Below, one piece after another: positions 18,681 to 60,891 of a DNA stretch of 64,000 bases. The DNA lies in the NCBI GenBank assembly GCA_030693235.1, contig JAUYBE010000006.1, positions 2,758 through 66,757 of the forward strand, written 5' to 3'. The translations under genes were made by a program, and so were the position numbers. The notes beneath the pieces were generated by a model, which saw only the letters and a program-made list of their open reading frames with translations, was not told the origin of the DNA and searched no databases. This stretch comes from a bacterium (GTDB taxonomy: Bacteria; Patescibacteriota; Minisyncoccia; UBA6257; UBA9933). The number at the start of each line of letters is the position of its first letter. Positions within the stretch are counted from its first letter, which is position 1.

Positions 18681-19814
18681 ATGAATACAGTAGAAATAGG
18701 TAAAAATAGGCCGCAAAAAGAAGGTTTTAACGCCTTTATTCCAAATTTGTTTCCACCTAATGGCGGGTTTAGTTTTGATGCGAAAATTCTCAAAAAGAAT
18801 GACGAGGCAACGCGCCTGCTAGGTAAACTTGATGGCATTACCCAACTTTTGCCGGACATAGATTTTTTTCTTTTCATGTATATTCGCAAAGACGCCGCAT
18901 CTTCAAGCCAAATTGAAGGGACGAGAGCGACGATGATTGATGCCATTGAAGCGGAAGCAAAAATTGATTCTGATATGCCGGAAGATGTTAATGACATTCT
19001 GCACTACATCAGAGCGCTCAATTACGGCCTCGCGCGGCTTGAAGAGTTTCCTTTTGTTTTGCGTTTTTTGCGTGAACTTCATAAAGAGCTGATGATAGGG
19101 GCGCGTGTAAGCCATTTCTCCAGCCCCGGTGAGTTTCGGGAAAGTCAAAATTGGATCGGCGGCACGCGCCCCGACAACGCGCATTTTGTTCCGCCGCCCG
19201 TGGATGAAATGAAACGCGCGCTTGCTGACCTTGAAAAATTCATCCATGCAAAAGACAATGAACTTTCTCTCATCAAGGCCGGTCTTGCGCACGCGCAATT
19301 TGAGACAATCCACCCGTTCCTTGATGGCAACGGACGTACGGGGCGCATGTTGATCACCTTCTATCTTTGGAAAGAAGGGCTTTTGGAAAGACCGGTCCTG
19401 TTTCTTTCTTCTTATTTTAAGAAGCATCAGAAAATATACTATGATCGCCTTGATAAATACCACGAAGGTGATGTGGAAGCGTGGATGGATTTCTTTCTTG
19501 ATGGCGTAATTGAGATTGCTAAAGAGGCGATAGGAACGGTTTTTTCGATTACCAAGTTGCGGGAACAGGACGCGATGAAAATACAGTCGTTAAGCAAACG
19601 CGCTTCAGAAAGTGCGGTGTTGGTGCTGCCCCAGCTTTATAAAATGCCAATTGTAAATGTGGCGAAAGTTCGGGAGTGGACAGGATTTACGCATGCCGGC
19701 GCGCAGAATCTGATTGATCGGTTTGTTGAACTTGATATTTTGCGCGATCGTAATCCAAATGTAACATACGGTAAATCATATATGTATAAAAAATACGTTG
19801 ATATTTTCGTTTAA
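18681..19814 (+). CDS. Fic/Doc family protein inserted between hsdR and hsdM
   Basis: It carries the Fic motif 'HPFLDGNGRTGR'. Confidence 0.85.
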   Translation: MNTVEIGKNRPQKEGFNAFIPNLFPPNGGFSFDAKILKKNDEATRLLGKLDGITQLLPDIDFFLFMYIRKDAASSSQIEGTRATMIDAIEAEAKIDSDMPEDVNDILHYIRALNYGLARLEEFPFVLRFLRELHKELMIGARVSHFSSPGEFRESQNWIGGTRPDNAHFVPPPVDEMKRALADLEKFIHAKDNELSLIKAGLAHAQFETIHPFLDGNGRTGRMLITFYLWKEGLLERPVLFLSSYFKKHQKIYYDRLDKYHEGDVEAWMDFFLDGVIEIAKEAIGTVFSITKLREQDAMKIQSLSKRASESAVLVLPQLYKMPIVNVAKVREWTGFTHAGAQNLIDRFVELDILRDRNPNVTYGKSYMYKKYVDIFV

Positions 19815-19818
19815 CACT

Positions 19819-21205
19819 ATGTCCGTTCAATCCATTATAAAATCAATCCAAGACATTATGCGCCAAGACGCCGGCGTGGACGGCGACGCCCAGAGAATTT
19901 CCCAAATCGTCTGGATGGTTTTTTTGAAAATGTTTGATGACAAAGAAAAAGAATACGGAACGCTTGACCCAAAATATAAATCTCCCATCCCCGAAAAACT
20001 TCGCTGGCGAAACTGGGCGGCAGACGAAGAAGGAATAACCGGCGAAAAACTGCTGGACTTTGTCAATAACGTTCTTTTCAAAGGATTCAAAAATCTTCCC
20101 GCGGGAGGCGACGCGCGCGGCCTGATTGTCCGCCAGGTGTTTGAAGACGCCTACAACTATAATGAAGTCCGGCACGCTTATCCGGCAGGTGGTAAATAAA
20201 ATTAACCAGATTGACTTTAACCGCAAAGACGAACGGCATCTTTTCAACGATATCTACGAACATATGTTGAAAGAGCTCCAGAGCGCGGGCAACGCAGGAG
20301 AATACTACACGCCGCGCCCGATCACGGAATTTATCGTGGAAATGACCGGACCCAAGCTCGGCCAAAAAATTCTTGACCCGGCCTGCGGCACCGGCGGATT
20401 TTTGGCAAACGCCATTGAATACATCCGCGGCCGCGAAGTCAAAAGCCCCAAAGACGAAAAGAAATTGCAGGAGTCGCTTTTTGGCGTGGAGGTCAAGCCG
20501 CTTCCGTATTTGCTCGCGATTACCAATCTTATGCTGCATAACATAGAAGTTCCCCGGCAGATTCGCCGCGCCGATATGCTGGCGCGTCCGCTTCGCGACT
20601 ATGGGCCGAGCGACCGGGTTGATATCATTGTTACCAATCCTCCTTTTGGCGCCATGGTGGCCACCGGCACCGATGCAAACTTTCCCGCGGAACTGCGCAC
20701 GCGCGAGACAGCAGACCTTTTCCTGGTGCTCATTATGCATCTCTTAAAATCCGGCGGGAGCGCTGGCATCGTGCTTCCGGACGGCTCGCTTTTCGGCGAA
20801 GGGGTAAAAACAAGAATCAGGGCAAAACTTCTGGAAGAATGCAATCTGCACACTATCGTGCGCTTGCCGCAGGGCGTATTTTCTCCCTACGCGGGCGTAA
20901 AAACAAACCTGCTTTTCTTTACCAAAGGAGAGCCCACCAAAGAGATTTGGTATTTTGAACACCCTCTGCCCGAGGGCTACCGCGCCTATTCCAAAAATCG
21001 CCCCATCCAGTCAAAAGAATTCGCGCTGGAGCGCAAGTGGTGGCAGAACCGCAAAAAAACCGCCAACGCCTGGAAGGTTTCCATTAAAGAAATCAAAGAC
21101 CAAAACTATAACCTTGATTTCAAAAACCCCAACGGCAAAACCGACCTCGCCCACAAGCCACCCGCGGAGTTGGTGAAGATATTACAAAAAATGAAAATGA
21201 AATAG
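19819..21205 (+). pseudogene. hsdM: Type I RM methyltransferase subunit HsdM, interrupted by a +1 frameshift (extra A at ~20161). It may be a sequencing error rather than genuine inactivation.
   Basis: HsdM_N is in frame 1 ('...RQVFEDAYNY' ending at 20199). The remainder is in frame 2 from 20126 ('MKSGTLIRQVVNKINQIDF...EYYTPRP...DPACGTGGFL...NPPFG'). The two parts are contiguous in the HsdM consensus 'VFEDAYNYMKSGTLLRQVINKI' if one A is removed from 'tataatg' at 20158-20164. Confidence 0.8.
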
Positions 21206-38037: not shown

Positions 38038-38215
38038 ACCACATGGTCTTGACATTTTCATAAATATTAGTATCATTGATAATAGTAGATTTGGTCTTTA
38101 AAAAATAACGGTTTTCAACCGTTTATATAAAGAGTGTGATGGGCGTTATGACTATAAAAACCAAAAGCTAATAGCCAACAGCTAAAAGCTAATAAAATGG
38201 AGGTGAAGATTAAAG
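38038..38215 (+). promoter_or_regulatory. Promoter/leader element, copy 2, ending in an abortive 'atgaattag' (M-N-stop)
   Basis: It is a duplicate of 33506-33670, but its start codon is followed immediately by TAG. The next real ORF begins 220 bp later at 38434. Confidence 0.5.
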
Positions 38216-41030: not shown

Positions 41031-41778
41031 AAGAGAGTTTTTAAAATTGATTAAAACGCTTGAATTATAGCGTTTGTTGTTTTCTCGCCGGTCGCCGGTT
41101 GCCAAAAGATTGGCATTTATTTCTTTGGCAAAATCGCGCCAAAATTTCAGGTCTGATTCCCGCGGCGAGTCATTAAAAATATCTTCCGGCAAAACTAAAA
41201 AATCAATTTTATTGTTTATTATTTCATTTTTGATTTTTTCCAAATCGGAATAATTAAAATTTTCGTTGGTTGAAACAGCGGCGATTTTAAAATAGTTTTC
41301 AAAATTTTTATAGGCTTCAGAATTTTTTTGAAGTTGGAAAATTGAAATTTGCCAGGCGCTAAACAATACTATGACTATGACTATGATGATGACAATCATT
41401 TTTCGGAGGTCAAACCTCTTAATATTTAAAATAATCGCTGCGATTAAAATATTTATCAAAGCTACAAAAAAAATAAGTGAGATTAATCCGCCAACAGAAG
41501 CCAGTCCTAAAAACGGCGATGAACCCAAAGAATTGCCGGCAGTTATGATGTAGGTCGGCAACAGGGAATACCTTGCTTGAAGATGGTCAAAAAATGTCCA
41601 GAGGAAAGGCAATGATATTAACAATAATCATTGACTATTGACAATTGACAACGGTAAAAATCGGATTAATCCGCGTTTAATGATGAAAACGGAAACCGGC
41701 AATCCCAAAAATCTAAAAAAAATTGAAAGGCAGAAACGCCAAAATTCCCAAAATTACCGAAAGAATGGGCAAGAACAT
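41028..41778 (-). pseudogene. lnt: Degraded apolipoprotein N-acyltransferase (Lnt)-like gene. The N-terminal piece is at 41713-41778, the central piece is ORF 41028-41624, and the C-terminal half of the CN-hydrolase domain is missing.
   Basis: The N-terminal fragment 'MFLPILSVILGILAFLPFNFF*' is Lnt-like (LAFxPF). It is separated from the central piece by a frameshift at an A8/T8 run (41715-41722) and an in-frame TGA (41631-41633). The central ORF has Lnt TM5-7 and the start of the CN-hydrolase domain ('KIAAVSTNE', 'FLVLPED', 'YNSSVLI') but stops after ~100 aa of the ~250-aa domain. Confidence 0.5.
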
Positions 41779-46657: not shown

Positions 46658-46960
46658 ATGTTAATCAACAAAAAAACTTTGGAACATTTGGTCGAGTTAA
46701 GCCGGATTGAATTGGATAAAAAAAGCGAAGAAAAGCTGTTGGGAGACCTTCAGAAAATTTTGGGGCACTTTGAGGAATTGGAGGGAGTGGATACGGAAAA
46801 TGTTGAGCCAATAGCGGGTGGAACGGAATTAAAAAATGTTTTTAGAGAAGATGAGTCAAATGTCAGTTGTCAGATGTCAAATGTTAAAATAGTGGAGGCG
46901 TTCCCGGAGAAAGAAAACGGTTTTTTAAAAGTGCCGCCCATATTTCAGAATAACGAATAA
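46658..46960 (+). CDS. gatC: Asp/Glu-tRNA amidotransferase subunit C
   Basis: 'LEHLVELSRIELDKKSEEKLLGDLQKILGHFEEL'. The track ORF starts at 46634. Confidence 0.8.
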   Translation: MLINKKTLEHLVELSRIELDKKSEEKLLGDLQKILGHFEELEGVDTENVEPIAGGTELKNVFREDESNVSCQMSNVKIVEAFPEKENGFLKVPPIFQNNE

Positions 46961-47003: not shown

Positions 47004-48488
47004 ATGGATATTCGCGATTTAACAATTAAAAAATTTCACGAAGGATTGGTAAATAAACAATTTTCGGTTTTTGAGATTACGAAAGCGTTTTTTAATTATA
47101 TTAAAGAAAAAGATTCACGGATAAACGCTTATTTGCGTCTAACCGAAGATTCAGCTTTGTCGCGGGCGAATAAAGTTGATATTGAATTGGCCGAGGGGAA
47201 AAACTTGGGAATTTTAGCAGGTATCCCTTTGGCTATTAAAGACAATATTTTAATTGAAGGCGAGTTGGCGACAGCTGGCTCGAAAATTTTAGAAAATTAT
47301 CGGGCGAGCTATGACGCGACCGTAATTAAAAAACTTAAAAAATCCGGCGCCGTGTTTTTAGGCAAAACTAATATGGACGAATTTGCCATGGGTTCTTCGA
47401 CGGAAAATTCGGCTTTTAAAATTACCAAAAATCCTCATGATTTGGAACGGGTGCCGGGCGGTTCTTCCGGCGGTTCAGCCGCGGCTGTTGCTTCTGATAT
47501 GGCTGTGGCGGCATTGGGTTCGGATACAGGTGGCTCTATCAGACAGCCGGCGGGTTTTTGCGGCGTGGTTGGTTTAAAGCCGACTTACGGCGCGGTTTCC
47601 AGAAACGGTTTAATCGCAATGGCTTCTTCTTTGGATCAAATCGGTCCGATAACAAAAACAGTTGAAGACGCGGGAATATTATTTGAGGCGATTAAAGGCA
47701 AAGATGAATTGGACGCGACCAGCGCTACGAATTCAGAATTCAGAATTCAGAATTCAGAATTACAGGATATTCGGAAATTGAAAATCGGGTTGCCGAAGGA
47801 GTATTTTGCCGGTGGATTAATCAAGGAAGTGGAAGAGGCGATTGAAGAAGCGATTAAAAATTTAAAATCATTAAAAATAGAATTTAAAGAAATCAGTTTG
47901 CCGCACACAAAATACGCTTTATCCTGTTATTATATTATTATGCCGGCGGAAGTAAGCGCGAATCTGGCGAGGTTTGATGGAGTGCGCTATGCGCGCCTAA
48001 GCGATGCAAAACTACGAATACACGCGAATGCCGCGAATAAATCAGAATTATTAAATATTTATCTTAAAACGAGGGGTGAGGGATTCGGCGATGAAGCAAA
48101 ACGAAGAATTATTTTAGGAACTTTTGTTTTGTCGTCGGGATATTACGACGCTTATTATTCTAAAGCTCAAAAAGTCAGGCGATTAATTAAAGAAGATTTT
48201 GACAAAGCGTTTGAAGAAGTCGATGTAATTTTAACGCCGGTTTCGCCGACCCCGGCCTTCAAAATCGGCGAAAAAACTGATGACCCGCTTCAAATGTATT
48301 TGTCAGATATTTTTACCATTCCGGTTAATTTGGCAGGGCTCCCGGCTCTTTCGATTCCAGTTAACCCAAAACCTAAAACCCAAAACCTAAAACCTAATTT
48401 ACCCGTTGGTTTCCAGCTTATCGGCAAACCGTTTCGCGAAGTTGATATTTTAGGAATCGGGCAGTATTATGAGAAAATCATCGAATAA
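47004..48488 (+). CDS. gatA: Asp/Glu-tRNA amidotransferase subunit A (amidase signature)
   Basis: The AS signature is 'GGSSGGSAAAVAS'. It contains in-frame tandem-repeat insertions at 47729-47763 and 48368-48395. Confidence 0.9.
   Translation: MDIRDLTIKKFHEGLVNKQFSVFEITKAFFNYIKEKDSRINAYLRLTEDSALSRANKVDIELAEGKNLGILAGIPLAIKDNILIEGELATAGSKILENYRASYDATVIKKLKKSGAVFLGKTNMDEFAMGSSTENSAFKITKNPHDLERVPGGSSGGSAAAVASDMAVAALGSDTGGSIRQPAGFCGVVGLKPTYGAVSRNGLIAMASSLDQIGPITKTVEDAGILFEAIKGKDELDATSATNSEFRIQNSELQDIRKLKIGLPKEYFAGGLIKEVEEAIEEAIKNLKSLKIEFKEISLPHTKYALSCYYIIMPAEVSANLARFDGVRYARLSDAKLRIHANAANKSELLNIYLKTRGEGFGDEAKRRIILGTFVLSSGYYDAYYSKAQKVRRLIKEDFDKAFEEVDVILTPVSPTPAFKIGEKTDDPLQMYLSDIFTIPVNLAGLPALSIPVNPKPKTQNLKPNLPVGFQLIGKPFREVDILGIGQYYEKIIE
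47729..47763 (+). repeat. (GAATTCA)5 tandem heptamer, in-frame within gatA
   Basis: Four perfect units and one variant unit encode 'NSEFRIQNSEL'. Each unit contains an EcoRI site. Confidence 0.8.
48368..48395 (+). repeat. (AAAACCT)4 tandem heptamer in gatA
   Basis: Units aaaacct/aaaaccc/aaaacct/aaaacct encode 'PKPKTQNLKP'. Confidence 0.8.
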
Positions 48489-50218: not shown

Positions 50219-50295
50219 TGGCGCGGGTGACCGGATTTGAACCGGCGATCCCTGCCGTGACAGGGCAGTGCTTTAGACCGCTAAGCTACACCCGC
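50219..50295 (-). tRNA. tRNA-Asp (GUC), with CCA encoded
   Basis: The reverse complement is 'GCGGGTGTAGCTTAGCGGTCTAAAGCACTGCCCTGTCACGGCAGGGATCGCCGGTTCAAATCCGGTCACCCGCGCCA'. It folds as a cloverleaf with the anticodon loop CTGTCAC. Confidence 0.85.
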
Positions 50296-50328: not shown

Positions 50329-51735
50329 TTATTTCAACTTTTTAACTATTTTTTTGATTTTTTCACCTCTTTCTTTATAATCTTTGAACATATCAAAGCT
50401 GGCTGAGGCGGGGGAGAAGATGACGGTAATTGGTAATTGGTAATTAGTAATTAGAGATTTGGCGGTTTTATAAGAAAGATTAATAGCTTTATTTAAATTT
50501 TTAACTTTTCTAATTACTATTTGCCGATTACTATTTACTGAAATTGCTTTAGCGATTTTTTGTTTGTTTTCGCCGAATAAAATCACCATTTTTGTATTGG
50601 AATTTTTTAACGCTTTGGCGAGAGGGGAATAATTTAAATTTTTGTCTTTGCCGCCGGCGATTAAGATTTTCGGTTCGCTAAAGGCGTGGATTGCCGCGGC
50701 CGCGGTTTGGGGATTGGTGGAAGCGGAGTCGTTGTAGAATTTAATTAATGTTTTGGAAGTCCGACCTCCCAAATATTGACGATTAATTTTAGGAGGTCGG
50801 ACTTCCCGAAATTGGTTAACGTTGATACTACGAACAAATTCTAATCGGTGCTCCAAACCGCGGAAATTTTTAATGGCCTTAATTATCTTTTCTTTCGGAC
50901 AACCGAGTGATAGAGCGACGGTCGCCGCCATTATTGCGTTTTTCAAATTATGCGTTCCGGGGATCTTTATAACTGATTTTATTTTATTCTCTAATTCGCG
51001 CGAATTAGAGAACGATAAATCTATGGGAAATTTTTTGCCGGGACTTTTTTGGGCGGTTAACTTTGAATATTTATCATCCGAAAAATAAAATATTTTATCG
51101 TTTTTTTTCTGCCATTTGGCGATATTGGCTTTGGCGTTGAAGTATTCGCGGAAATTTTTGTGAGCGTCTAAATGGTCTGGGAAAATACCCAAGAAAACGG
51201 CAATGTCGGGTGATTGGGTTAAGTCCTGAAGCTGAAAACTGGAAAGCTCTAAAATAACGACAGAATTATTTTTTAATTTTGGCAAAATTTCAATAGCTGG
51301 TTTGCCGATGTTGCCGGCTAAATAAGTATTTTTATCGCAAGCTTTTAAAATTTTATAAAGCAGAGTGGAAGTTGTCCCTTTGCCCTTAGTGCCTGTTATG
51401 CCGATGACTTGTGGTGAGCCGCGCCGAACCGTTTTTCTTATCTCTTCAAAAAACAATTGAGTGGCGCTGGAAAATTTAACTCCTTTTTTAACAGCTTTTT
51501 GGATTTCCGGCGAATTATAAGGCACGCCCGGCGAGCGAAAAACAAGGTCGAATTGTTCCAGATTTTTCAAATAATTTTTATCGAGTTTTTTGTCTAAAAC
51601 AGAAACATCCGATTTCTTAAACCGCGGGGACTTTTTGAGAAATTTCAATAGAGATTTTCCTTCAAGGCCAAAGCCCAGAATGGCGATTTTTTTTGAAGTT
51701 AAATTATTGGTCATAAATAAAAAATACCCCGCCAT
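50329..51735 (-). CDS. murD: UDP-N-acetylmuramoylalanine--D-glutamate ligase
   Basis: The N-terminus is 'KIAILGFGLEGKSLLKFL' and the P-loop is 'GITGTKGKGTT'. It contains three small in-frame insert elements: 50425-50456, 50755-50806 and 50988-51011. Confidence 0.85.
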   Translation of the reverse strand: MAGYFLFMTNNLTSKKIAILGFGLEGKSLLKFLKKSPRFKKSDVSVLDKKLDKNYLKNLEQFDLVFRSPGVPYNSPEIQKAVKKGVKFSSATQLFFEEIRKTVRRGSPQVIGITGTKGKGTTSTLLYKILKACDKNTYLAGNIGKPAIEILPKLKNNSVVILELSSFQLQDLTQSPDIAVFLGIFPDHLDAHKNFREYFNAKANIAKWQKKNDKIFYFSDDKYSKLTAQKSPGKKFPIDLSFSNSRELENKIKSVIKIPGTHNLKNAIMAATVALSLGCPKEKIIKAIKNFRGLEHRLEFVRSINVNQFREVRPPKINRQYLGGRTSKTLIKFYNDSASTNPQTAAAAIHAFSEPKILIAGGKDKNLNYSPLAKALKNSNTKMVILFGENKQKIAKAISVNSNRQIVIRKVKNLNKAINLSYKTAKSLITNYQLPITVIFSPASASFDMFKDYKERGEKIKKIVKKLK

Positions 51736-52712: not shown

Positions 52713-52782
52713 GGCGGGGTGGACCAATGGTAGGTCGGGAGGCTCATAATCTCCAGAAGTGGGTTCAATTCCCACCCCCGCA
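52713..52782 (+). tRNA. tRNA with a CAU anticodon (Met elongator or Ile2-lysidine type); short D-arm, CCA not encoded
   Basis: 'GGCGGGGTGGACCAATGGTAGGTCGGGAGGCTCATAATCTCCAGAAGTGGGTTCAATTCCCACCCCCGCA'. The anticodon loop is CTCATAA and the T-loop is TTCAATT. Confidence 0.65.
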
Positions 52783-52791
52783 ACATTCTTC

Positions 52792-52866
52792 GTCGGCGTA
52801 GCTCAGTGGCAGAGCGAGGGACTCATAAACCCTAGGTCACAGGTTCGATCCCTGTCGCCGGCACCA
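52792..52866 (+). tRNA. tRNA-Met (CAU), possibly the initiator (three G-C pairs in the anticodon stem), with CCA encoded
   Basis: 'GTCGGCGTAGCTCAGTGGCAGAGCGAGGGACTCATAAACCCTAGGTCACAGGTTCGATCCCTGTCGCCGGCACCA'. Confidence 0.8.
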
Positions 52867-52956
52867 TTAAAATTAAAAGTTTAAAATTCAAAAATCAAAA
52901 TGACAAATCAAAATTTTAAAATGATTTAAATTAAAAATTTTGAATCTTACATTTTT

Positions 52957-54005
52957 ATGATTAAAGAAATTAGTAGAAATTTTGGGGAAGAAATAAAAAA
53001 AGTCGAAGATTTAAAAAGTTTAGAACAACTGCGTATTAAATATCTCGGCCGGAAAGGCGAGTTAACGCGAATTTTGCGCGGGCTCAAGGATTTATCGGTG
53101 GAAGAGCGCCGAAAAATCGGCCCTCAAGCCCAAAAACTCAAAAAAGAACTGGAAGAATTATTTAGAGAAAAAACAGATGAACTAAAACCTAAAAACTATA
53201 ACCTAAAACCTAAAATTGACATCACCAAGCCGGGCAAAAAGATTCCCGTAGGCCATCTTCATCTTTTATCGAAAACGGAAGAGGAAATTCGCCAGATCTT
53301 TCTTTCGATGAATTTTTCGGCGGTTGAAGGGCCGGAAATTGAGGACGAGTATCATAATTTTGACGCTTTAAACATTCCACCGAATCATCCGGCAAGAGAT
53401 ATGTGGGATACATTTTGGCTTCGCCAAAATGAAATCAAAAATCAAAAATCAAAAATAACCTAAAACCTAAAACCCAAAACCTAAAACCTTTATTATTGCG
53501 CACTCACACAAGCCCTATGCAAATCCGCTATATGGAAACTCACAATCCGCCGTTTCAGATTATTGTGCCGGGACGAGTTTTTCGTTACGAAGCCACAGAC
53601 GCCTCTCATGAAACCAATTTTTATCAAGTTGAGGGGTTGATGGTTGGCAAAGATGTTTCTTTGGCGAATTTTAAGTTTGTTATTGAGGAATTTTTTAAGA
53701 AATTTTTTGCTTCGACGGGTTCGGCGCGGGGCGGCAAAGAGATAGAATTTCGCTATCGGCCGAGTTATTTTCCTTTTGTCGAGCCGGGCGTTGAAGTCGA
53801 TATTAAATTTGAAAATAAATGGCTGGAAATTATGGGCGCTGGTATGGTCCATCACAATGTTTTTGAAGCGGTGAAATATAATCCTTATGAATGGCAAGGT
53901 TTTGCTTTTGGAATGAGTTTAGAAAGATTGACGATGATCAAATACAATATTCCCGACATCAGACTGTTCTACTCCGGCGACTTGAGATTTATAAATCAAT
54001 TCTAA
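52957..54005 (+). CDS. pheS: Phenylalanyl-tRNA synthetase alpha subunit, split into two ORFs (52957-53463 and 53496-54005) by a frameshift within a heptamer tandem-repeat tract
   Basis: ORF1 ends '...HPARDMWDTFWLRQNEIKNQKSKIT*'. ORF2 (TTG start) continues 'LLRTHTSPMQIRYM...FRYEATDASHETNFYQVEGL...' with class II motifs 2 and 3. Frame 3 is open from 53433, so a 1-nt insertion in the A5 runs at 53433-53460 would fuse the two. Confidence 0.8.
53432..53488 (+). repeat. (AAATCAA)3-(CTAAAAC)4 compound tandem repeat at the pheS break
   Basis: Seen directly in the sequence. The same (AAAACCT)n family occurs at 53184-53211, 60593-60620, 60724-60744 and 48368-48395. A related (AAAACTC)4 is at 56051-56078, and (GGTAATT)4 is at 50425-50456. 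Confidence 0.8.
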
Positions 54006-55873
54006 TGTTTAAAAAGGAATTATTTTTAGAGGAAGCCGTTTTGGACGACCTTTCGCGGGGTTTTGATTCTTTGGAGCAGCCTATTTCTCGGAAGGCTTTT
54101 AAATTGCTTTTTATTGCCGCTGTTATCGTTATAACCGTAGTTATAGCCAGATTATTTTTTTTGGGTTGGTGGCAGAATGATTTTTATAAAAAACGGGCGT
54201 TGGCCAATGCCGGAGAGATGACCGTTATTCGGACTCAGCGGGGGATTATTTTTGACCGTTTTAACAAGCCCTTGGTCAAAAACCTTCCGGCTTTTCATTT
54301 AAATCTTAAACTCGTCGAGTTTTTCAAAAATAGCGAAGAGCGGCCTCAGACGATAAAAGCTCTTCAGAGTATTCTTAATTTGCCGCCTGATTATATAGAA
54401 GATTTGTTTAAAAACGTTAACTTGGAGAGGCAAAATATTTTAACCGTCGCCAGGCAATTAACAGTTGACCAAATAATTAAAATTAAAAATTTAAATTTGC
54501 CGGCGGTTCAAGTAGAAGACGATTTTGAAAGGCAATATCCCGAAGTGGAAGTTTTTTCTCATCTCCTTGGTTATACCGGGCCGGTCAGCAAAGCCGATTT
54601 GGGGAAAAAATCGTCGCTTTCTTTGAATGATATTGTCGGCAAAAACGGTTTGGAGCTTTATTATGATACGGAATTGAGAGGGGAAGACGGAGAAACGATT
54701 AATTATCGGAATGCCAAAGGAGAAATTATAGACAATAAATTATTTAAAAAGCCGGAGCCGGGCCATGAATTTCATATTACGATTGACGCCGAATTTCAAT
54801 CTTTTTTTTATAATCGATTGAAGCAAGGATTGAATTATTTGGGAAGCCGGGCCGGCGTGGGAATCGCTTTAAATCCCCAAAACGGAGAAGTTTTGGCCTT
54901 GGTCAGTTTGCCGAGTTTTGATAATAATAAAATCAAATCGGAAGATTTAGTTGATTCTTCCAAGCCGCTTTTTAACCGCGCCGTTTCCGGATTTTACGCG
55001 CCGGGTTCAACGATTAAACCTTTAGTGGCTTTTGGGGCTTTGAAAGAGGGAATTATCGCGCCGGAAAAAGAAATCCTTTCAATCGGCTATATAGAAATTC
55101 CCAATCCTTATCATCCGGATCAGCCTTCCCGTTTTGTGGATTGGAAGCCGCACGGCTGGGTAAATTTATATTCGGCTCTGGCTCGTTCTTCAAATGTTTA
55201 TTTTTATGAAATCGGCGGGGGATTTGGCGATCAAAAAGGATTGGGAATCGAGAAATTGAAAGATTATTGGCAAAAATTCGGCTTGGGAGATCTTACCGGT
55301 ATTGATTTGCCGGGCGAAGCCAAAGGATTTCTTCCTGATCCGGAAACCAAAGAAAAAAAACAAGGAGAAATTTGGCGGATAGGCGACACTTACAATGTTT
55401 CTATCGGCCAGGGCGATCTTTTAGTGACTCCGCTTCAGCTTATTAATTTTATTGCCGCTATCGCCAATGGCGGGAAAATTTATCAGCCGTTTATTGTTCA
55501 AAAGATTGTTTCGGAAGACGGAAAAGTCATTAAAGAAACAAATCCAAAAATTATAAAAGATTATTCTTTAGATATTGAAATAATCAAGAAAGTCCAGAAA
55601 GGAATGATTGATGGCGTTGAAAAATCTTACGGCACGTCTCATCTTTTGGCTGGTTTGCCGGTATCGGTTGCCGGTAAAACCGGCACTTCGCAGGTTGAAA
55701 ACAAAACTAAAACAAACGCTTTTTTCGTCGGATACAGTCCAAAAGAAAATCCTCAAATCGCGATTCTGGTTTTAGTCGAAGACGCCCGCGAAGGCAGCAT
55801 TAACACAGTCCCGATAGCCAAAGACGCGCTTAATTGGTATTATACAAATAGAATAAAGAATAATGAATTATGA
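54006..55873 (+). CDS. Penicillin-binding protein 2 / FtsI-type transpeptidase (the track ORF starts at 53891 inside pheS)
   Basis: An N-terminal TM anchor is followed by 'PGSTIKPLVAFGAL' (SxxK), 'ARSSNVYF' (SxN) and 'AGKTGTSQ' (KTG). Confidence 0.85.
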
Positions 55874-56874
55874 ATTCTGAATTACGACAAGACCTTGTTT
55901 CCGGCGATTGGGTTGTAATCGTGCCGAAAAGGGTTAAGCGATTAGAACAATTTATTAAAAAAGAAAAACGAATTAAGTCGCCGATTAAGGGGTGTCCTTT
56001 TGAAAATCCGCAAAAAAGCGGGAACGAACAGCCGACTCTAATATACCCTCAAAACTCAAAACTCAAAACTCAAAACTTTTCTGGTTGGCAGGTACAGGTG
56101 ATTCCTAATAAATATCCGGCTCTTATTCGTAAAAATGTTTGTCCGGCAGTTCTTAAAAACGGCCCTTATTCAGTTATTGAAGGCATTGGCCATCACGATT
56201 TAGTTATAACCAGAGATCACCATAAAAATTTTCCGCTGTTGGACAAAAAATCGGCCAATTTGGTTTTTCAGGCTTTTCAAGAGCGTTATCGGATTCTTAT
56301 TAAAGATTCTTGTTCGGCTTATGTTTCTATTTTTCATAATTGGGGGCCGAAGGCCGGCGCTTCAATTTATCACCCGCATTATCAGATAATTTCTATTCCG
56401 GTTGTTCCGCCGGATATCGGCCATTCGCTTTCCGGTTCGGCTGATTATTTCAAAAAAAATAAAAAATGCGTTCATTGCGTAATGATTGAATGGGAAAAGA
56501 GAATAAAAAAGAGAATCGTTTATGAAAATAAAGGCGCTATTGTTTTTACTCCTTTTGTTTCCCGCGAACCGTTTGAATTGAGAATCTTTCCCAAAAAACA
56601 CCTGCCTTGTTTTGAAGACACTTCAAAACAAGATTTGGAATTGGTTGTTGAAGCTTTACAAAAAGCTTTGACGAAGATTGAAATCAAACTCAATGATCCG
56701 GATTATAATTTTTTCATTCATACGGCGCCGATTTTAAACAAGAAAAATTACAAGCATTATCACTGGCATATTGAAATTCAGCCGAAAATCAGCATCTCGG
56801 CCGGATTTGAACTGGGAACAGGAATTGAAATTACCGTCGTTGACCCGGATGAAGCGGCGAGGATATTGAGGTAA
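55870..56874 (+). CDS. Galactose-1-phosphate uridylyltransferase-like (GalT / HIT-fold nucleotidyltransferase)
   Basis: 'GCPFENP' (Zn site), 'SIYHPHYQII' (HxHxQ active-site motif) and a C-terminal 'YHWHIEIQP'. It contains an (AAAACTC)4 insertion at 56051-56078. Confidence 0.65.
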   Translation: MNSELRQDLVSGDWVVIVPKRVKRLEQFIKKEKRIKSPIKGCPFENPQKSGNEQPTLIYPQNSKLKTQNFSGWQVQVIPNKYPALIRKNVCPAVLKNGPYSVIEGIGHHDLVITRDHHKNFPLLDKKSANLVFQAFQERYRILIKDSCSAYVSIFHNWGPKAGASIYHPHYQIISIPVVPPDIGHSLSGSADYFKKNKKCVHCVMIEWEKRIKKRIVYENKGAIVFTPFVSREPFELRIFPKKHLPCFEDTSKQDLELVVEALQKALTKIEIKLNDPDYNFFIHTAPILNKKNYKHYHWHIEIQPKISISAGFELGTGIEITVVDPDEAARILR

Positions 56875-60024: not shown

Positions 60025-60891
60025 ATGAGCGCTAAAAAACTTTTAATTTTCAATTGGAAAATGGCGCCGGACTCGCTAAAAGAAGCGATTTCGCTTTTTG
60101 AGCGAACGCGGACTTGCGCGGACAAAACGCGGAATCACGCAGAAACAATTATTGCTCCGCCGTTTGTTTATCTATCAAATTTGTCAAAAGTCAAAAGTTC
60201 TCTCTTCGGGAGATCTCCCGTAGGGAGACAAAAGTCAAAAGTTGCGCTGGCTGCCCAGAATGTTTTCTGGGAAGACAGCGTCGCTTATACTGGTGAAATT
60301 TCAGCGAGTATGCTAAAAGATTTAGGCGTGGAATATGCGATTATCGGACATTCAGAAAGGCGGAAATATTTATCCGCCGAAGGCGGATTCGCCTCTGGCG
60401 GAAACGAAACAGATAAGATGATTAACAAAAAAATTCTGGCGTCATTGAAAGCGGGATTGAAAGTAATTCTCTGTGTCGGTGAACCGACACAACGCGGACA
60501 AACGCGGACTGAACGCGGACTGACGCGGAATATAAAATGGGCGAAAAATTATGTTAAAAATCAATTAGAAAAAGATTTAAAAAATTTAATCCAAAACCTA
60601 AAACCTAAAACCCAAAACCTAATTATTGCCTACGAGCCCCTCTGGTCCATCGGCACCGGCCATTCGGACGCGCCGCAAGACGCGGCAGAAATGATAAATT
60701 TTATTAAAAATATTCTAAAAGCTAAAACCTATAACCTAAAACCTAAGGTTTTGTATGGCGGCTCCGTTAATTCCAAAAACATCGCCAAATTTCTAAAGCA
60801 TCCCGAAATCGACGGCGCGCTTGTCGGTCACGCGAGTTTGAAACCCAAAGAAGTTAAAGCTATTATTGAAATAGCGTCGAAAATGTGCTAA
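60025..60891 (+). CDS. tpiA: Triosephosphate isomerase carrying four in-frame repeat insertions
   Basis: 'IIGHSERR' and 'AYEPLWSIGTGHSDAP' (TIM signature). It has extra segments at 60183-60243, 60490-60536, 60593-60620 and 60724-60744. Confidence 0.85.
   Translation: MSAKKLLIFNWKMAPDSLKEAISLFERTRTCADKTRNHAETIIAPPFVYLSNLSKVKSSLFGRSPVGRQKSKVALAAQNVFWEDSVAYTGEISASMLKDLGVEYAIIGHSERRKYLSAEGGFASGGNETDKMINKKILASLKAGLKVILCVGEPTQRGQTRTERGLTRNIKWAKNYVKNQLEKDLKNLIQNLKPKTQNLIIAYEPLWSIGTGHSDAPQDAAEMINFIKNILKAKTYNLKPKVLYGGSVNSKNIAKFLKHPEIDGALVGHASLKPKEVKAIIEIASKMC

What the first reader, a model, noticed from the sequence alone, without database searches (positions are those of the whole stretch)
53432..53496. 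Essential pheS is split exactly at a compound (AAATCAA)3(CTAAAAC)4 repeat tract
The N-terminal ORF terminates at a TAA created by the repeat. The catalytic-core ORF begins 33 nt later with TTG in a different frame, and that frame is open through the whole repeat from 53433. A single-base insertion in one of the A5 runs would restore a full-length PheS with a repeat-encoded linker.

There are three possibilities:
- a sequencing error at the repeat;
- a genuine two-piece PheS;
- a programmed or slippage-prone frameshift.

Each is interesting given the genome-wide repeat family.
Basis: partly seen in the sequence, partly recalled or inferred. Interest (0 to 1): 0.6.

Follow-up and report, generated by a model that had tools for sequence, protein, structure and literature searches.

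The report
pheS broken by missing heptamer repeat
An essential tRNA-charging gene (pheS) of an uncultured Patescibacteria bacterium reads as two pieces because a 7-base repeat inside it has three copies where relatives have four; this is most likely a repeat-slippage or assembly slip, not a designed split.

Summary
pheS is read in two frames. The N-part, 52957..53463, stops at a TAA in the first CTAAAAC unit. The C-part frame is open from 53433 to 54005.

In seven other Paceibacteria/Wolfebacteria species the same site reads CGCCAAAATG(AAATCAA)x4, in frame, encoding NEIKNQKSKIKN. The window has the identical left flank but only three units. Adding one 7-nt unit gives a normal 351-aa PheS.

- All 80 relatives examined have a one-piece gene.
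- Pfam's catalytic-core profile runs from position 75 in the N-part to position 77 in the C-part, so the break lies inside one domain.
- There is no canonical slippery heptamer, no downstream RNA structure and no conserved split.
- Other assemblies end contigs, or carry an N gap, inside arrays at this same loop.

I therefore read this as a one-unit contraction of a translated heptanucleotide microsatellite. It is most likely an assembly collapse or a minority allele, not a programmed frameshift or a two-piece enzyme. Reads are needed to settle it.

The context is more interesting than the split. About 33-nt period-7 arrays lie in frame in many housekeeping genes across this lineage, and my literature searches found no description of them.

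The parts
52957..53463 (+). pheS N-terminal part (168 aa): coiled-coil N domain plus the first third of the class II core, through motif-1 region HPARDMWDTFW. It ends at TAA 53461-63.
   Evidence: Pfam PF02912 and PF01409 positions 1-75; aligns to full-length PheS of relatives
53433..54005 (+). pheS C-terminal part in the -1 frame. The frame is open through both arrays. LLLRTHTSP... to the C-terminal INQF follows, and the first possible start is TTG 53496.
   Evidence: Pfam PF01409 positions 77-246
53432..53456 (+). (AAATCAA) x3.6 perfect heptamer array. It is the site of the frame defect, being one unit shorter than the conserved in-frame x4 state.
   Evidence: TRF; comparison with L003 and L095-L100
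53457..53489 (+). (AACCTAA/CTAAAAC) x4.7 array of 33 nt. It reads NLKPKTQNLKP in the C-part frame. The third unit, CCAAAAC (53474-80), removes the TAA that would close that frame.
   Evidence: the same reading and the same TAA-to-CAA/TAT fixes are seen in GatA, TIM and the PheS N-part arrays
53433..53460 (+). The 28-nt interval in which the frame change must occur. It lies between TGA 53430-32, which closes the C-part frame upstream, and TAA 53461-63, which closes the N-part frame.
   Evidence: read from the sequence
53410..53431 (+). Left flank ACATTTTGGCTTCGCCAAAATG (T F W L R Q N E). Together with the array it is 91-100% identical across 7 species whose neighbouring coding DNA is only 59-80% identical.
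53182..53215 (+). Another heptamer array, (CTAAAAC) x4.9, translated in frame in the linker after the coiled coil (LKPKNYNLKPK). The in-frame TAA is changed to TAT. The closest relative P0001 shares it.
53445..53454 (+). Only conceivable -1 slip sites: A_AAA at 53445-48 and at 53451-54, allowing single tRNA-Lys re-pairing. This is not a canonical X_XXY_YYZ heptamer. Inference only.
   Evidence: read from the sequence; no stimulatory structure
53458..53477 (+). ACC-TAA / ACC-TAA / ACC-CAA at 7-nt spacing. A peptidyl-tRNA-Thr hop of 14 nt, from ACC 53458-60 to ACC 53472-74, would land in the C-part frame. Speculative.
   Evidence: read from the sequence; untested

Best explanation
This is an ordinary one-piece pheS (PheRS alpha subunit) of a Paceibacteria/Wolfebacteria-like Patescibacteria genome. 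Its hypervariable surface loop, between motif 1 (HPARDMWDTFW) and LLRTHTSP, carries two translated heptanucleotide microsatellites.

The functional state is WLRQNE-IKNQKSKIKN-NLKPKTQNLKP-LLLRTHTSP, encoded by G(AAATCAA)x4 AAAT followed by a 33-nt CTAAAAC array. The sequence as given has only three AAATCAA units. Because 7 is not a multiple of 3, the missing unit throws the N-part into a frame where the first CTAAAAC unit supplies a TAA.

The loss is a slipped-strand type contraction. Either it was made by the assembler, as a tandem-repeat loop collapse, or it is a minority or transient allele in the population. I do not expect the predominant living allele to be split. It is not a programmed recoding site and not a two-subunit alpha chain.

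Shown: the anatomy, the x4 in-frame state in relatives, the absence of the split elsewhere, and the fragility of assemblies at these arrays. Inferred: that the window's x3 state is not the working allele.
For: 1. L003 reads CTTCGCCAAAATG(AAATCAA)x4AAAT in frame. Six further pheS genes (L095-L100) carry the same block with four units; in L099 the fourth unit is AAATTAA. Every other AAATCAA array found in an ORF also has at least 4 units, including one in a PBP gene in L052.
2. Adding one unit yields a 351-aa protein that aligns over residues 2-351 (in some loci from residue 11-13) with relatives' pheS loci. Both halves keep every column that is invariant across the 38-sequence alignment.
3. 80 of 80 species-representative relatives are in one frame across the loop.
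4. The CCAAAAC variant keeps the C-part frame open through the second array, exactly as in the in-frame arrays of GatA, TIM and the PheS N-part. That array has therefore been translated in continuity with the C-part.
5. The Pfam core domain is split between profile positions 75 and 77.
6. Assemblies break here. Contigs L086-L090, L102 and L103 start inside arrays of this loop, and L082 has an N gap in it.
7. There is no downstream RNA structure (z = +1.66), no canonical slippery site, and no Rfam match.
Against: - No reads and no second assembly of this species were available. Searches found nothing, and the best relative is 76-84% identical. The copy number in the real population is therefore untested.
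- The arrays (25 + 33 nt) are shorter than usual read lengths and final k-mers, so a collapse is not expected by default.
- The rest of the window looks well assembled. Only one other broken gene, hsdM, was found among the adjacent-ORF pairs checked with Pfam.
- In one relative species the array has the same copy number in four independent contigs (L083-L085, L090), from three or four assemblies. These tracts are therefore not obviously hypervariable.
- A single-base indel would restore the frame equally well.
Confidence: 0.55

Rival explanations
1. The three-unit allele is real and fixed, and full-length PheS is made by translational recoding on the repeat. One route is a -1 P-site slip of tRNA-Lys on A_AAA (53445-48 or 53451-54). 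The other is a hop of peptidyl-tRNA-Thr from ACC 53458-60, with TAA in the A site, to the identical ACC 14 nt downstream (53472-74), which lies in the C-part frame.
For: - Both halves are undegraded.
- The repeat provides perfectly matching re-pairing codons at 7- and 14-nt spacing, and a stop codon follows directly after the take-off codon.
- The C-part frame is open over the whole tract.
- Single-unit change of a 7-nt array in an essential gene implies out-of-frame intermediates that must somehow be survived.
Against: - There is no X_XXY_YYZ heptamer, no SD-like stimulator and no downstream hairpin or pseudoknot.
- Unstimulated slips and hops are typically around 1% efficient (established knowledge of recoding, from memory).
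- No relative needs recoding: 0 of 80.
- In-frame TAAs are purged from all other genic arrays, so ribosomes here read arrays normally and obey TAA.
Confidence: 0.12
2. The break is a single-base sequencing or consensus error: one A missing from an A5 run within 53437-53455. In that case the true array really has three units.
For: +1 nt anywhere in 53433-53460 restores the frame. A5 runs are classic indel sites. A syntenic relative assembly (L081) is riddled with homopolymer frameshifts.
Against: - All comparable arrays have four units and the same left flank. A whole-unit difference explains the data without a new three-unit-plus-one-base state.
- The window shows no homopolymer-type breaks in the other genes checked.
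Confidence: 0.1
3. It is a real inactivating mutation. pheS would be a fresh pseudogene in this genome, which might come from a non-viable cell line, or have a second pheS elsewhere, or belong to a population in which the sampled variant was deleterious.
For: Another gene in the window, hsdM, also carries a frameshift, so real or apparent frameshifts are not unique here. The lesion is a single event with no further decay.
Against: PheRS is indispensable. No second pheS is present in the 64 kb, and relatives have a single copy at this syntenic position. A lethal allele cannot be the consensus of a living population.
Confidence: 0.1
4. It is a genuine two-piece alpha subunit. The 168-aa N-piece and a C-piece re-initiated at TTG 53496 (or ATG 53517), 33 nt after the stop, would assemble non-covalently across a tolerant surface loop.
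For: - The loop is hypervariable in length, 5 to about 45 aa in relatives.
- It is present as a 17-aa loop in T. thermophilus PheS and nearly absent in Pseudomonas.
- It has low predicted confidence.
- Most genes here lack an SD (about 10 of 37 have one), so the lack of an SD before the TTG is not decisive.
- The A-rich unstructured tract could permit re-initiation.
Against: - The cut lies inside the catalytic core, separating motif 1 from motifs 2 and 3.
- The TTG start removes the conserved LL of LLRTHTSP, and the ATG start removes RTHTSP.
- 36 of the 37 start codons examined in the window are ATG.
- No relative is split.
- The CCAAAAC fix shows selection for reading through the array, which a separate C-piece would not need.
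Confidence: 0.06

Closest known systems
neuO of E. coli K1 (CUS-3 prophage): heptanucleotide (AAGACTC)n repeat in the 5' coding region, with slipped-strand phase variation
   Same: Both have a 7-nt tandem repeat inside a coding sequence that is translated. The protein is full length only in one of the three copy-number classes, and gain or loss of one unit shifts the frame (PMC13001214).
   Different: - neuO has 3-53 units and switches at measurable rates. It is a dispensable surface-modification gene, and 66% of genomes are phase-OFF.
- Here the tract has 3-4 units and the gene is essential.
- Copy number is four in every relative examined, so there is no sign of a contingency function.
Cyanobacterial STRR (short tandemly repeated repetitive) sequences
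   Same: Both are families of tandem 7-bp repeats with several different unit sequences scattered over the genome. Their function is unknown (PMC2670836). STRR also occur inside the RNase P RNA gene (Vioque 1997, cited in PMC2858038).
   Different: - STRR are described mainly in intergenic regions and in an RNA gene of heterocystous cyanobacteria (my recollection).
- Here the arrays are about 33 nt, A-rich, mostly inside protein-coding housekeeping genes, in frame and translated.
- The host is Patescibacteria. No homology is implied.
Borg tandem repeats that create disordered protein segments
   Same: Both are lineage-specific, pervasive, perfect or near-perfect tandem repeats inside ORFs. They add hydrophilic, disorder-prone segments and arise independently at many sites (PMC9879509 and its preprint).
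   Different: Borg genic repeats have unit lengths divisible by three. Here the unit is 7 nt, so every unit is read in all three frames. Only certain total lengths are tolerated, and in-frame stops have to be mutated away.
Programmed -1 ribosomal frameshifting (dnaX type) and translational bypassing (T4 gene 60 type)
   Same: There are two overlapping frames of one protein, A-rich sequence at the overlap, and a stop codon right after a codon that recurs downstream.
   Different: There is no canonical slippery heptamer, no stimulatory structure and no conservation. These comparisons rest on established knowledge of the systems, recalled rather than tested.
Rickettsia palindromic elements inserted in frame in protein genes
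   Same: Both are short repeated DNA found inside conserved housekeeping ORFs, tolerated as extra surface segments.
   Different: RPEs are 100-150-bp palindromic mobile elements (from memory). Here the inserts are about 33-nt tandem heptamers with no inverted repeats.

Membership tests
Bacterial PheRS alpha subunit (PheS, class IIc aaRS) | N-terminal coiled-coil domain (PF02912) plus the class II core (PF01409) | tested here: met
   PF02912 and PF01409 positions 1-75 in the N-part, and PF01409 positions 77-246 in the C-part. E = 2e-89 to T. thermophilus PheS 1b70_A over residues 13-351 of the repaired protein.
Bacterial PheRS alpha subunit (PheS, class IIc aaRS) | Encoded as a single polypeptide | tested here: not met
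   As given, the sequence reads in two frames. All 80 relatives are single ORFs.
SSR contingency locus (phase variation, neuO-like) | Coding tandem repeat whose unit length is not a multiple of 3 | tested here: met
   7-nt units
SSR contingency locus (phase variation, neuO-like) | Copy number varies between strains or within populations | tested here: not met
   Relatives invariably have 4 units. Four contigs of one relative species (L083-L085, L090), from three or four independent assemblies, agree. Not testable for the source species itself, for which no reads or second assembly were available.
SSR contingency locus (phase variation, neuO-like) | Dispensable, environment-facing gene and a long tract giving a high switching rate | tested here: not met
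   The gene is an essential aaRS and the tract has only 3-4 units.
Programmed -1 ribosomal frameshift | X_XXY_YYZ slippery heptamer in the zero frame | tested here: not met
   Only single-tRNA A_AAA sites are present at 53445-48 and 53451-54.
Programmed -1 ribosomal frameshift | Downstream stimulatory hairpin or pseudoknot | tested here: not met
   Fold of 53425-53580: -10.4 kcal/mol, z = +1.66, and 192 of 200 shuffles fold at least as well.
Programmed -1 ribosomal frameshift | Frameshift conserved in orthologues | tested here: not met
   0 of 80 relatives
Translational bypassing (gene 60 type) | Matching take-off and landing codons with a stop after take-off | tested here: met
   ACC 53458-60 followed by TAA, with ACC 53472-74 in the C-part frame. 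This is a by-product of any (CTAAAAC)n repeat.
Translational bypassing (gene 60 type) | Take-off stem-loop and nascent-peptide signal; conservation | tested here: not met
   No structure and no conservation. The nascent-peptide signal is not testable here.
Naturally split aaRS gene | Own start codon and initiation signal for the second piece | tested here: inconclusive
   There is a TTG at 53496 with no SD, but only about 10 of 37 genes here have an SD.
Naturally split aaRS gene | Split conserved in relatives and placed between domains | tested here: not met
   The break is inside PF01409 and no relative is split.
STRR-like heptamer repeat family | Many tandem arrays of 7-bp units with several different unit sequences per genome | tested here: met
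   Window: 9 arrays of period 7, with units CTAAAAC, AAATCAA, GAATTCA, AATTACC, CTCAAAA and others.
STRR-like heptamer repeat family | Cyanobacterial host and mainly intergenic location | tested here: not met
   The host is Patescibacteria, and 61 of 75 arrays lie in frame inside long ORFs.

The most novel reading that the evidence does not exclude
The three-unit pheS allele is genuine. It would be a captured out-of-frame intermediate of a lineage-wide process, apparently undescribed, that writes about 33-nt heptanucleotide arrays into essential genes of Paceibacteria. Cells would survive such intermediates because ribosomes re-pair on the repeated codons (a -1 slip on A_AAA, or an ACC-to-ACC hop over TAA). 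That would make 7-nt arrays a frameshift-tolerant way of remodelling protein loops. The near-identical 50-nt block ACATTTTGGCTNCGCCAAAATG(AAATCAA)x4, found in pheS of scattered species, would then reflect an active, sequence-directed mechanism rather than descent.
Probability: 0.08. Interest if true: 0.8.

Novelty: new member of a known kind. Interest (0 to 1): 0.4.

Why it matters
Taken alone, the split pheS is probably a caution for annotators. Seven-base repeats inside genes of these bacteria are places where one slipped unit, in the cell or in the assembler, turns an essential gene into an apparent pseudogene. Completeness and 'gene loss' calls for CPR genomes should therefore be checked at such arrays.

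If the allele proved real and fixed, an essential aaRS would depend on recoding or on fragment assembly, which would be remarkable.

The wider pattern deserves its own study. Period-7 arrays of near-constant length are translated in frame in GatA, GatC, TIM, PheS, a Mur ligase and PBPs, and they recur at the same loops in many species. They raise a concrete question: how can a repeat whose unit breaks the reading frame grow inside indispensable genes?

Tried and rejected
- **Exact look-ups.** Searching for the N-part ORF and the neighbouring GalT-like protein in the contig index found nothing. The source genome is also absent from the species-representative genomes, where the best hit is 76%.
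- **Metagenome scan for the compound tract.** A scan with flexible spacing, meant to catch copy-number variants of the same species, gave 0 hits.
- **Truncated PheS fragments.** Searching with the C-part alone for split genes elsewhere gave many short 'PheS' proteins. Those inspected are contig-end truncations inside arrays, an N gap or long-read homopolymer errors. None is a conserved split.
- **Programmed frameshift.** Rejected for lack of a slippery site, structure or conservation.
- **Known RNA element at the site.** Rfam finds only the three tRNAs.
- **An extra CTAAAAC unit as the repair.** Rejected, because the TAA at 53461 would still close the N-part frame. The defect must lie in 53433-53460.
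- **AlphaFold2 model of the repaired protein** (mean pLDDT 70.8). It shows only that both array-encoded segments fall in low-confidence stretches (80-100 and 126-182). It does not decide anything.
- **Literature searches** for heptamer repeats in CPR/Patescibacteria returned nothing relevant.
- **My own first idea**, that the 25-nt array is uniquely short, was weakened. With a looser threshold, nine 25-26-nt arrays lie in frame in other ORFs.

Full report
**1. What is in the sequence**

The region 52957-54005 encodes the alpha subunit of phenylalanyl-tRNA synthetase in two frames.

The first ORF (52957..53463, 168 aa) carries the N-terminal coiled-coil domain and the first 75 positions of Pfam's class II core profile. 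The second frame carries positions 77-246. Nothing is missing and nothing is duplicated, which is the signature of a frameshift inside one domain.

The frame of the C-part is closed upstream by TGA 53430-32 and is open from 53433. The frame of the N-part closes at TAA 53461-63. The change of frame must therefore happen within 53433-53460. It is a -1 shift, equivalent to +1, +7 or -2 nt.

This interval is exactly the perfect array (AAATCAA)x3.6 (53432-53456; TRF score 50, 100% matches) plus its junction with the second array, (CTAAAAC)x4.7 (53457-53489).

It is not a chance pattern:
- CTAAAAC dimers occur 15 times in the window against 0.04 expected.
- Period 7 is the only tandem period that is enriched, with 9 arrays against 0-2 for other periods and 0 in shuffles.

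**2. The arrays are translated**

The same kind of array lies in frame in other housekeeping genes of the window:

| Gene | Coordinates | Peptide |
|---|---|---|
| GatC | 46855-84 | not recorded |
| GatA | 47726-61 | NSEFRIQNSE |
| GatA | 48363-97 | NPKPKTQNLKP |
| Mur ligase (minus strand) | 50425-54 | ITNYQLPIT |
| PheS linker | 53182-215 | LKPKNYNLKPK |
| GalT/HIT-like protein | 56045-77 | NSKLKTQN |
| Triosephosphate isomerase | 60588-619 | QNLKPKTQNL |
| Triosephosphate isomerase | 60715-46 | LKAKTYNLKPK |

A 7-nt unit is read in all three phases, so three consecutive CTAAAAC units put a TAA in every frame. In each genic array the TAA that would fall in the gene's frame has been changed to CAA or TAT.

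The pheS array 53457-89 has this fix (CCAAAAC, third unit) for the frame of the C-part. That array has therefore been read as part of a continuous protein with the catalytic core. The lesion lies upstream of it and is recent.

**3. Relatives give the in-frame state**

The repaired protein finds full-length, single-chain PheS (322-374 aa) of Patescibacteria / Wolfebacteria / Paceibacterota. The best is 81-84% identical.

In the alignment, the stretch between DTFWL[KR] and LLRTHTSP varies from 5 to about 45 residues. T. thermophilus PheS has a 17-residue loop there and Pseudomonas almost none. It is a tolerant loop.

Several relatives read WLRQNEIKNQKSKIKN... at this loop. At the DNA level:
- Wolfebacteria S40-20 (L003) has CTTCGCCAAAATG(AAATCAA)x4AAAT.
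- An exact-pattern scan of JGI metagenomes returned six further pheS genes (L095-L100) with the same block and four units, all in frame. In L099 the fourth unit is AAATTAA.

The window has the identical left flank and three units. With a fourth unit it reads WLRQNEIKNQKSKIKN-NLKPKTQNLKP-LLLRTHTSP, a 351-aa protein. That protein aligns over residues 2-351 (in some loci from residue 11-13) with 80 relatives' loci. It also keeps every column that is invariant in the 38-sequence alignment.

Every other AAATCAA array seen in an ORF, including one in a PBP gene (L052), has at least four units.

The simplest statement of the defect is 'one heptamer unit missing'. A single missing A would also restore the frame and cannot be excluded.

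**4. Is the split a feature?**

All 80 species-representative relatives are in one frame across the loop.

On recoding and independent initiation:
- The overlap contains no X_XXY_YYZ site. It contains only A_AAA, where a single tRNA-Lys could slip.
- The 156 nt around and downstream of the tract fold worse than shuffled sequence (z = +1.66).
- Rfam finds nothing but tRNAs.
- A C-piece would have to start at TTG 53496, losing the conserved LL of LLRTHTSP. By contrast, 36 of the 37 start codons examined in the window are ATG.
- The absence of an SD is not informative, because only about 10 of 37 genes have one.

A curiosity of the repeat is that ACC-TAA, ACC-TAA and ACC-CAA follow each other at 7-nt spacing. 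A peptidyl-tRNA-Thr hop of 14 nt would therefore land in the right frame. I record this as an untested idea.

**5. Artefact or allele?**

I could not find the source genome or any same-species sequence, so copy number in the population is untested.

Indirect evidence shows that these arrays are hard for assemblers:
- Seven contigs from different runs (L086-L090, L102, L103) begin inside heptamer arrays of this very loop.
- One NCBI scaffold (L082) has an N gap there.
- Short upstream ends of L083-L085 carry errors.

A perfect period-7 tract forms a cycle in a de Bruijn graph at small k. One turn fewer gives exactly the observed sequence (inference).

Against this:
- The tract is shorter than a read.
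- Apart from pheS, only hsdM was found broken among the adjacent-ORF pairs I checked with Pfam. That break is near 20160 and is not at a repeat.
- In one relative species the same four-unit array was recovered in four contigs (L083-L085, L090), from three or four independent assemblies. These tracts are therefore not obviously unstable.

My weights are:

| Explanation | Weight |
|---|---|
| Unit-level contraction that is not the working allele (assembler or minority variant) | 0.55 |
| Real allele rescued by recoding | 0.12 |
| Single-base error | 0.10 |
| Real inactivation | 0.10 |
| Two-piece enzyme | 0.06 |

**6. Comparison with known systems**

The closest mechanism is neuO of E. coli K1. 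It has a translated heptanucleotide repeat in the coding region, and only copy numbers divisible by three give full-length protein (PMC13001214). However:
- neuO has up to 53 units;
- it is dispensable and is often OFF;
- here there are 3-4 units in an essential gene, with no variation among relatives.

The site therefore works like a coding SSR but fails the tests for a contingency locus.

As a genomic family, the arrays recall cyanobacterial STRR sequences, which are 7-bp repeats of unknown function (PMC2670836). They differ in host and in being mostly genic and translated.

Borg repeats also add disordered protein segments, but their units are divisible by three.

**7. The context, which is the more interesting part**

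In 476 kb from 80 relatives, period-7 arrays number 26, against at most 5 for any other period. With a looser threshold, 61 of 75 arrays lie in frame in ORFs of at least 120 codons. Most are 30-35 nt long. Thirty-two different A-rich units occur among 53 arrays.

At the pheS loop, different species hold different heptamers, among them AAATTCA, GGGTCAA, GCAAATC and GTCAAAT.

The block ACATTTTGGCTNCGCCAAAATG(AAATCAA)x4 is 91-100% identical in seven species whose flanking coding DNA is 59-80% identical. Those species are scattered on a rough NJ tree.

At the N-terminal linker, relatives carry different heptamer-derived peptides of the same length, and T. thermophilus aligns there without a gap.

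I found no description of this in the searchable literature. How a unit of 7 nt expands in essential genes without lethal intermediates is unexplained. The window's pheS could conceivably be such an intermediate. That is the novel reading, to which I give about 8%.

**8. Verdict**

- The split is most likely a one-unit slip in a translated heptamer microsatellite and not a biological design.
- Interest is moderate, mainly because of the lineage-wide array family it exposes.
- Read-level data would settle the question in minutes.

Noticed in passing
window 46855-46884, 47726-47761, 48363-48397, 50425-50454 (minus-strand gene), 53182-53215, 56045-56077, 60588-60619, 60715-60746: About 33-nt arrays of 7-nt units are translated in frame inside housekeeping genes: GatC, GatA (two arrays), a Mur ligase, the PheS linker, a GalT/HIT-like protein, and TIM (two arrays). 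Units differ (GTCAAAT, GAATTCA, CTAAAAC, AATTACC, CTCAAAA). In-frame TAAs are mutated to CAA or TAT. The same phenomenon occurs across 80 relatives.
   Followed up: partly
window 53410-53456; L003:3451-3505; L095-L100: The block ACATTTTGGCTNCGCCAAAATG(AAATCAA)n is 91-100% identical in pheS of seven species whose neighbouring coding DNA is only 59-80% identical. The species are scattered on a rough tree, and six of them come from one JGI metagenome (Ga0209541). The cause is unknown. Possibilities are conservation at the nucleotide level, repeated expansion from a seed, or short-patch transfer.
   Followed up: partly
window 19798-21205: The type I R-M methylase gene hsdM is also frameshifted. 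HsdM_N (19798..20199) and N6_Mtase (20126..21205) are in different frames. The junction is near 20155-20175 (gcctacaactataatgaagtcc), not at a heptamer array or a long homopolymer.
   Followed up: partly
window 38155-38192, 41630-41651, 52883-52913, 55846-55883: Period-7 arrays also occur outside genes or at gene junctions: TAAAAGC-like, ATTGACA, a degenerate AAAAATC tract just upstream of pheS, and a GAATTAT-like tract spanning the PBP stop and the next gene's start.
   Followed up: no
window 52713-52784, 52792-52866, 50219-50295: Two tandem tRNA-Met(CAT) genes lie directly upstream of pheS, and a tRNA-Asp lies on the minus strand. One of the CAT tRNAs may be an initiator or tRNA-Ile2; this was not examined.
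   Followed up: no
window, 37 gene starts: Only about 10 of 37 genes have an SD-like motif upstream, and most starts sit in A/T-rich leaders. This suggests largely SD-independent initiation in this genome.
   Followed up: no
L086-L090, L102, L103 (first 30 nt); L082:214-245: Independent public assemblies of relatives end contigs inside heptamer arrays of the pheS loop, or leave an N gap there. As a result, truncated 'PheS' proteins of 150-180 aa are common in protein databases.
   Followed up: yes
L081 (ENA ERZ1286166 contig_2390, 411 kb), e.g. L081:3968-3975: The closest syntenic relative assembly has many genes broken at homopolymers: pheS at an A8 run, TrpRS, the PBP in three pieces, and GalT. 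It looks like an unpolished long-read assembly. Its pheS loop itself is in frame (WLKMTNNRSSVVGRKLLRTHTSP).
   Followed up: partly
alignment A1 columns 100-117; window 53182-53215: At the linker after the PheS coiled coil, relatives carry different heptamer-derived peptides of the same length (LKPKNYNLKPK, LSTFNFQFST, IITNYQLPIT, LVHRPLSIVHR and others). T. thermophilus PheS aligns there without a gap. Arrays therefore seem to overwrite rather than lengthen this segment.
   Followed up: no
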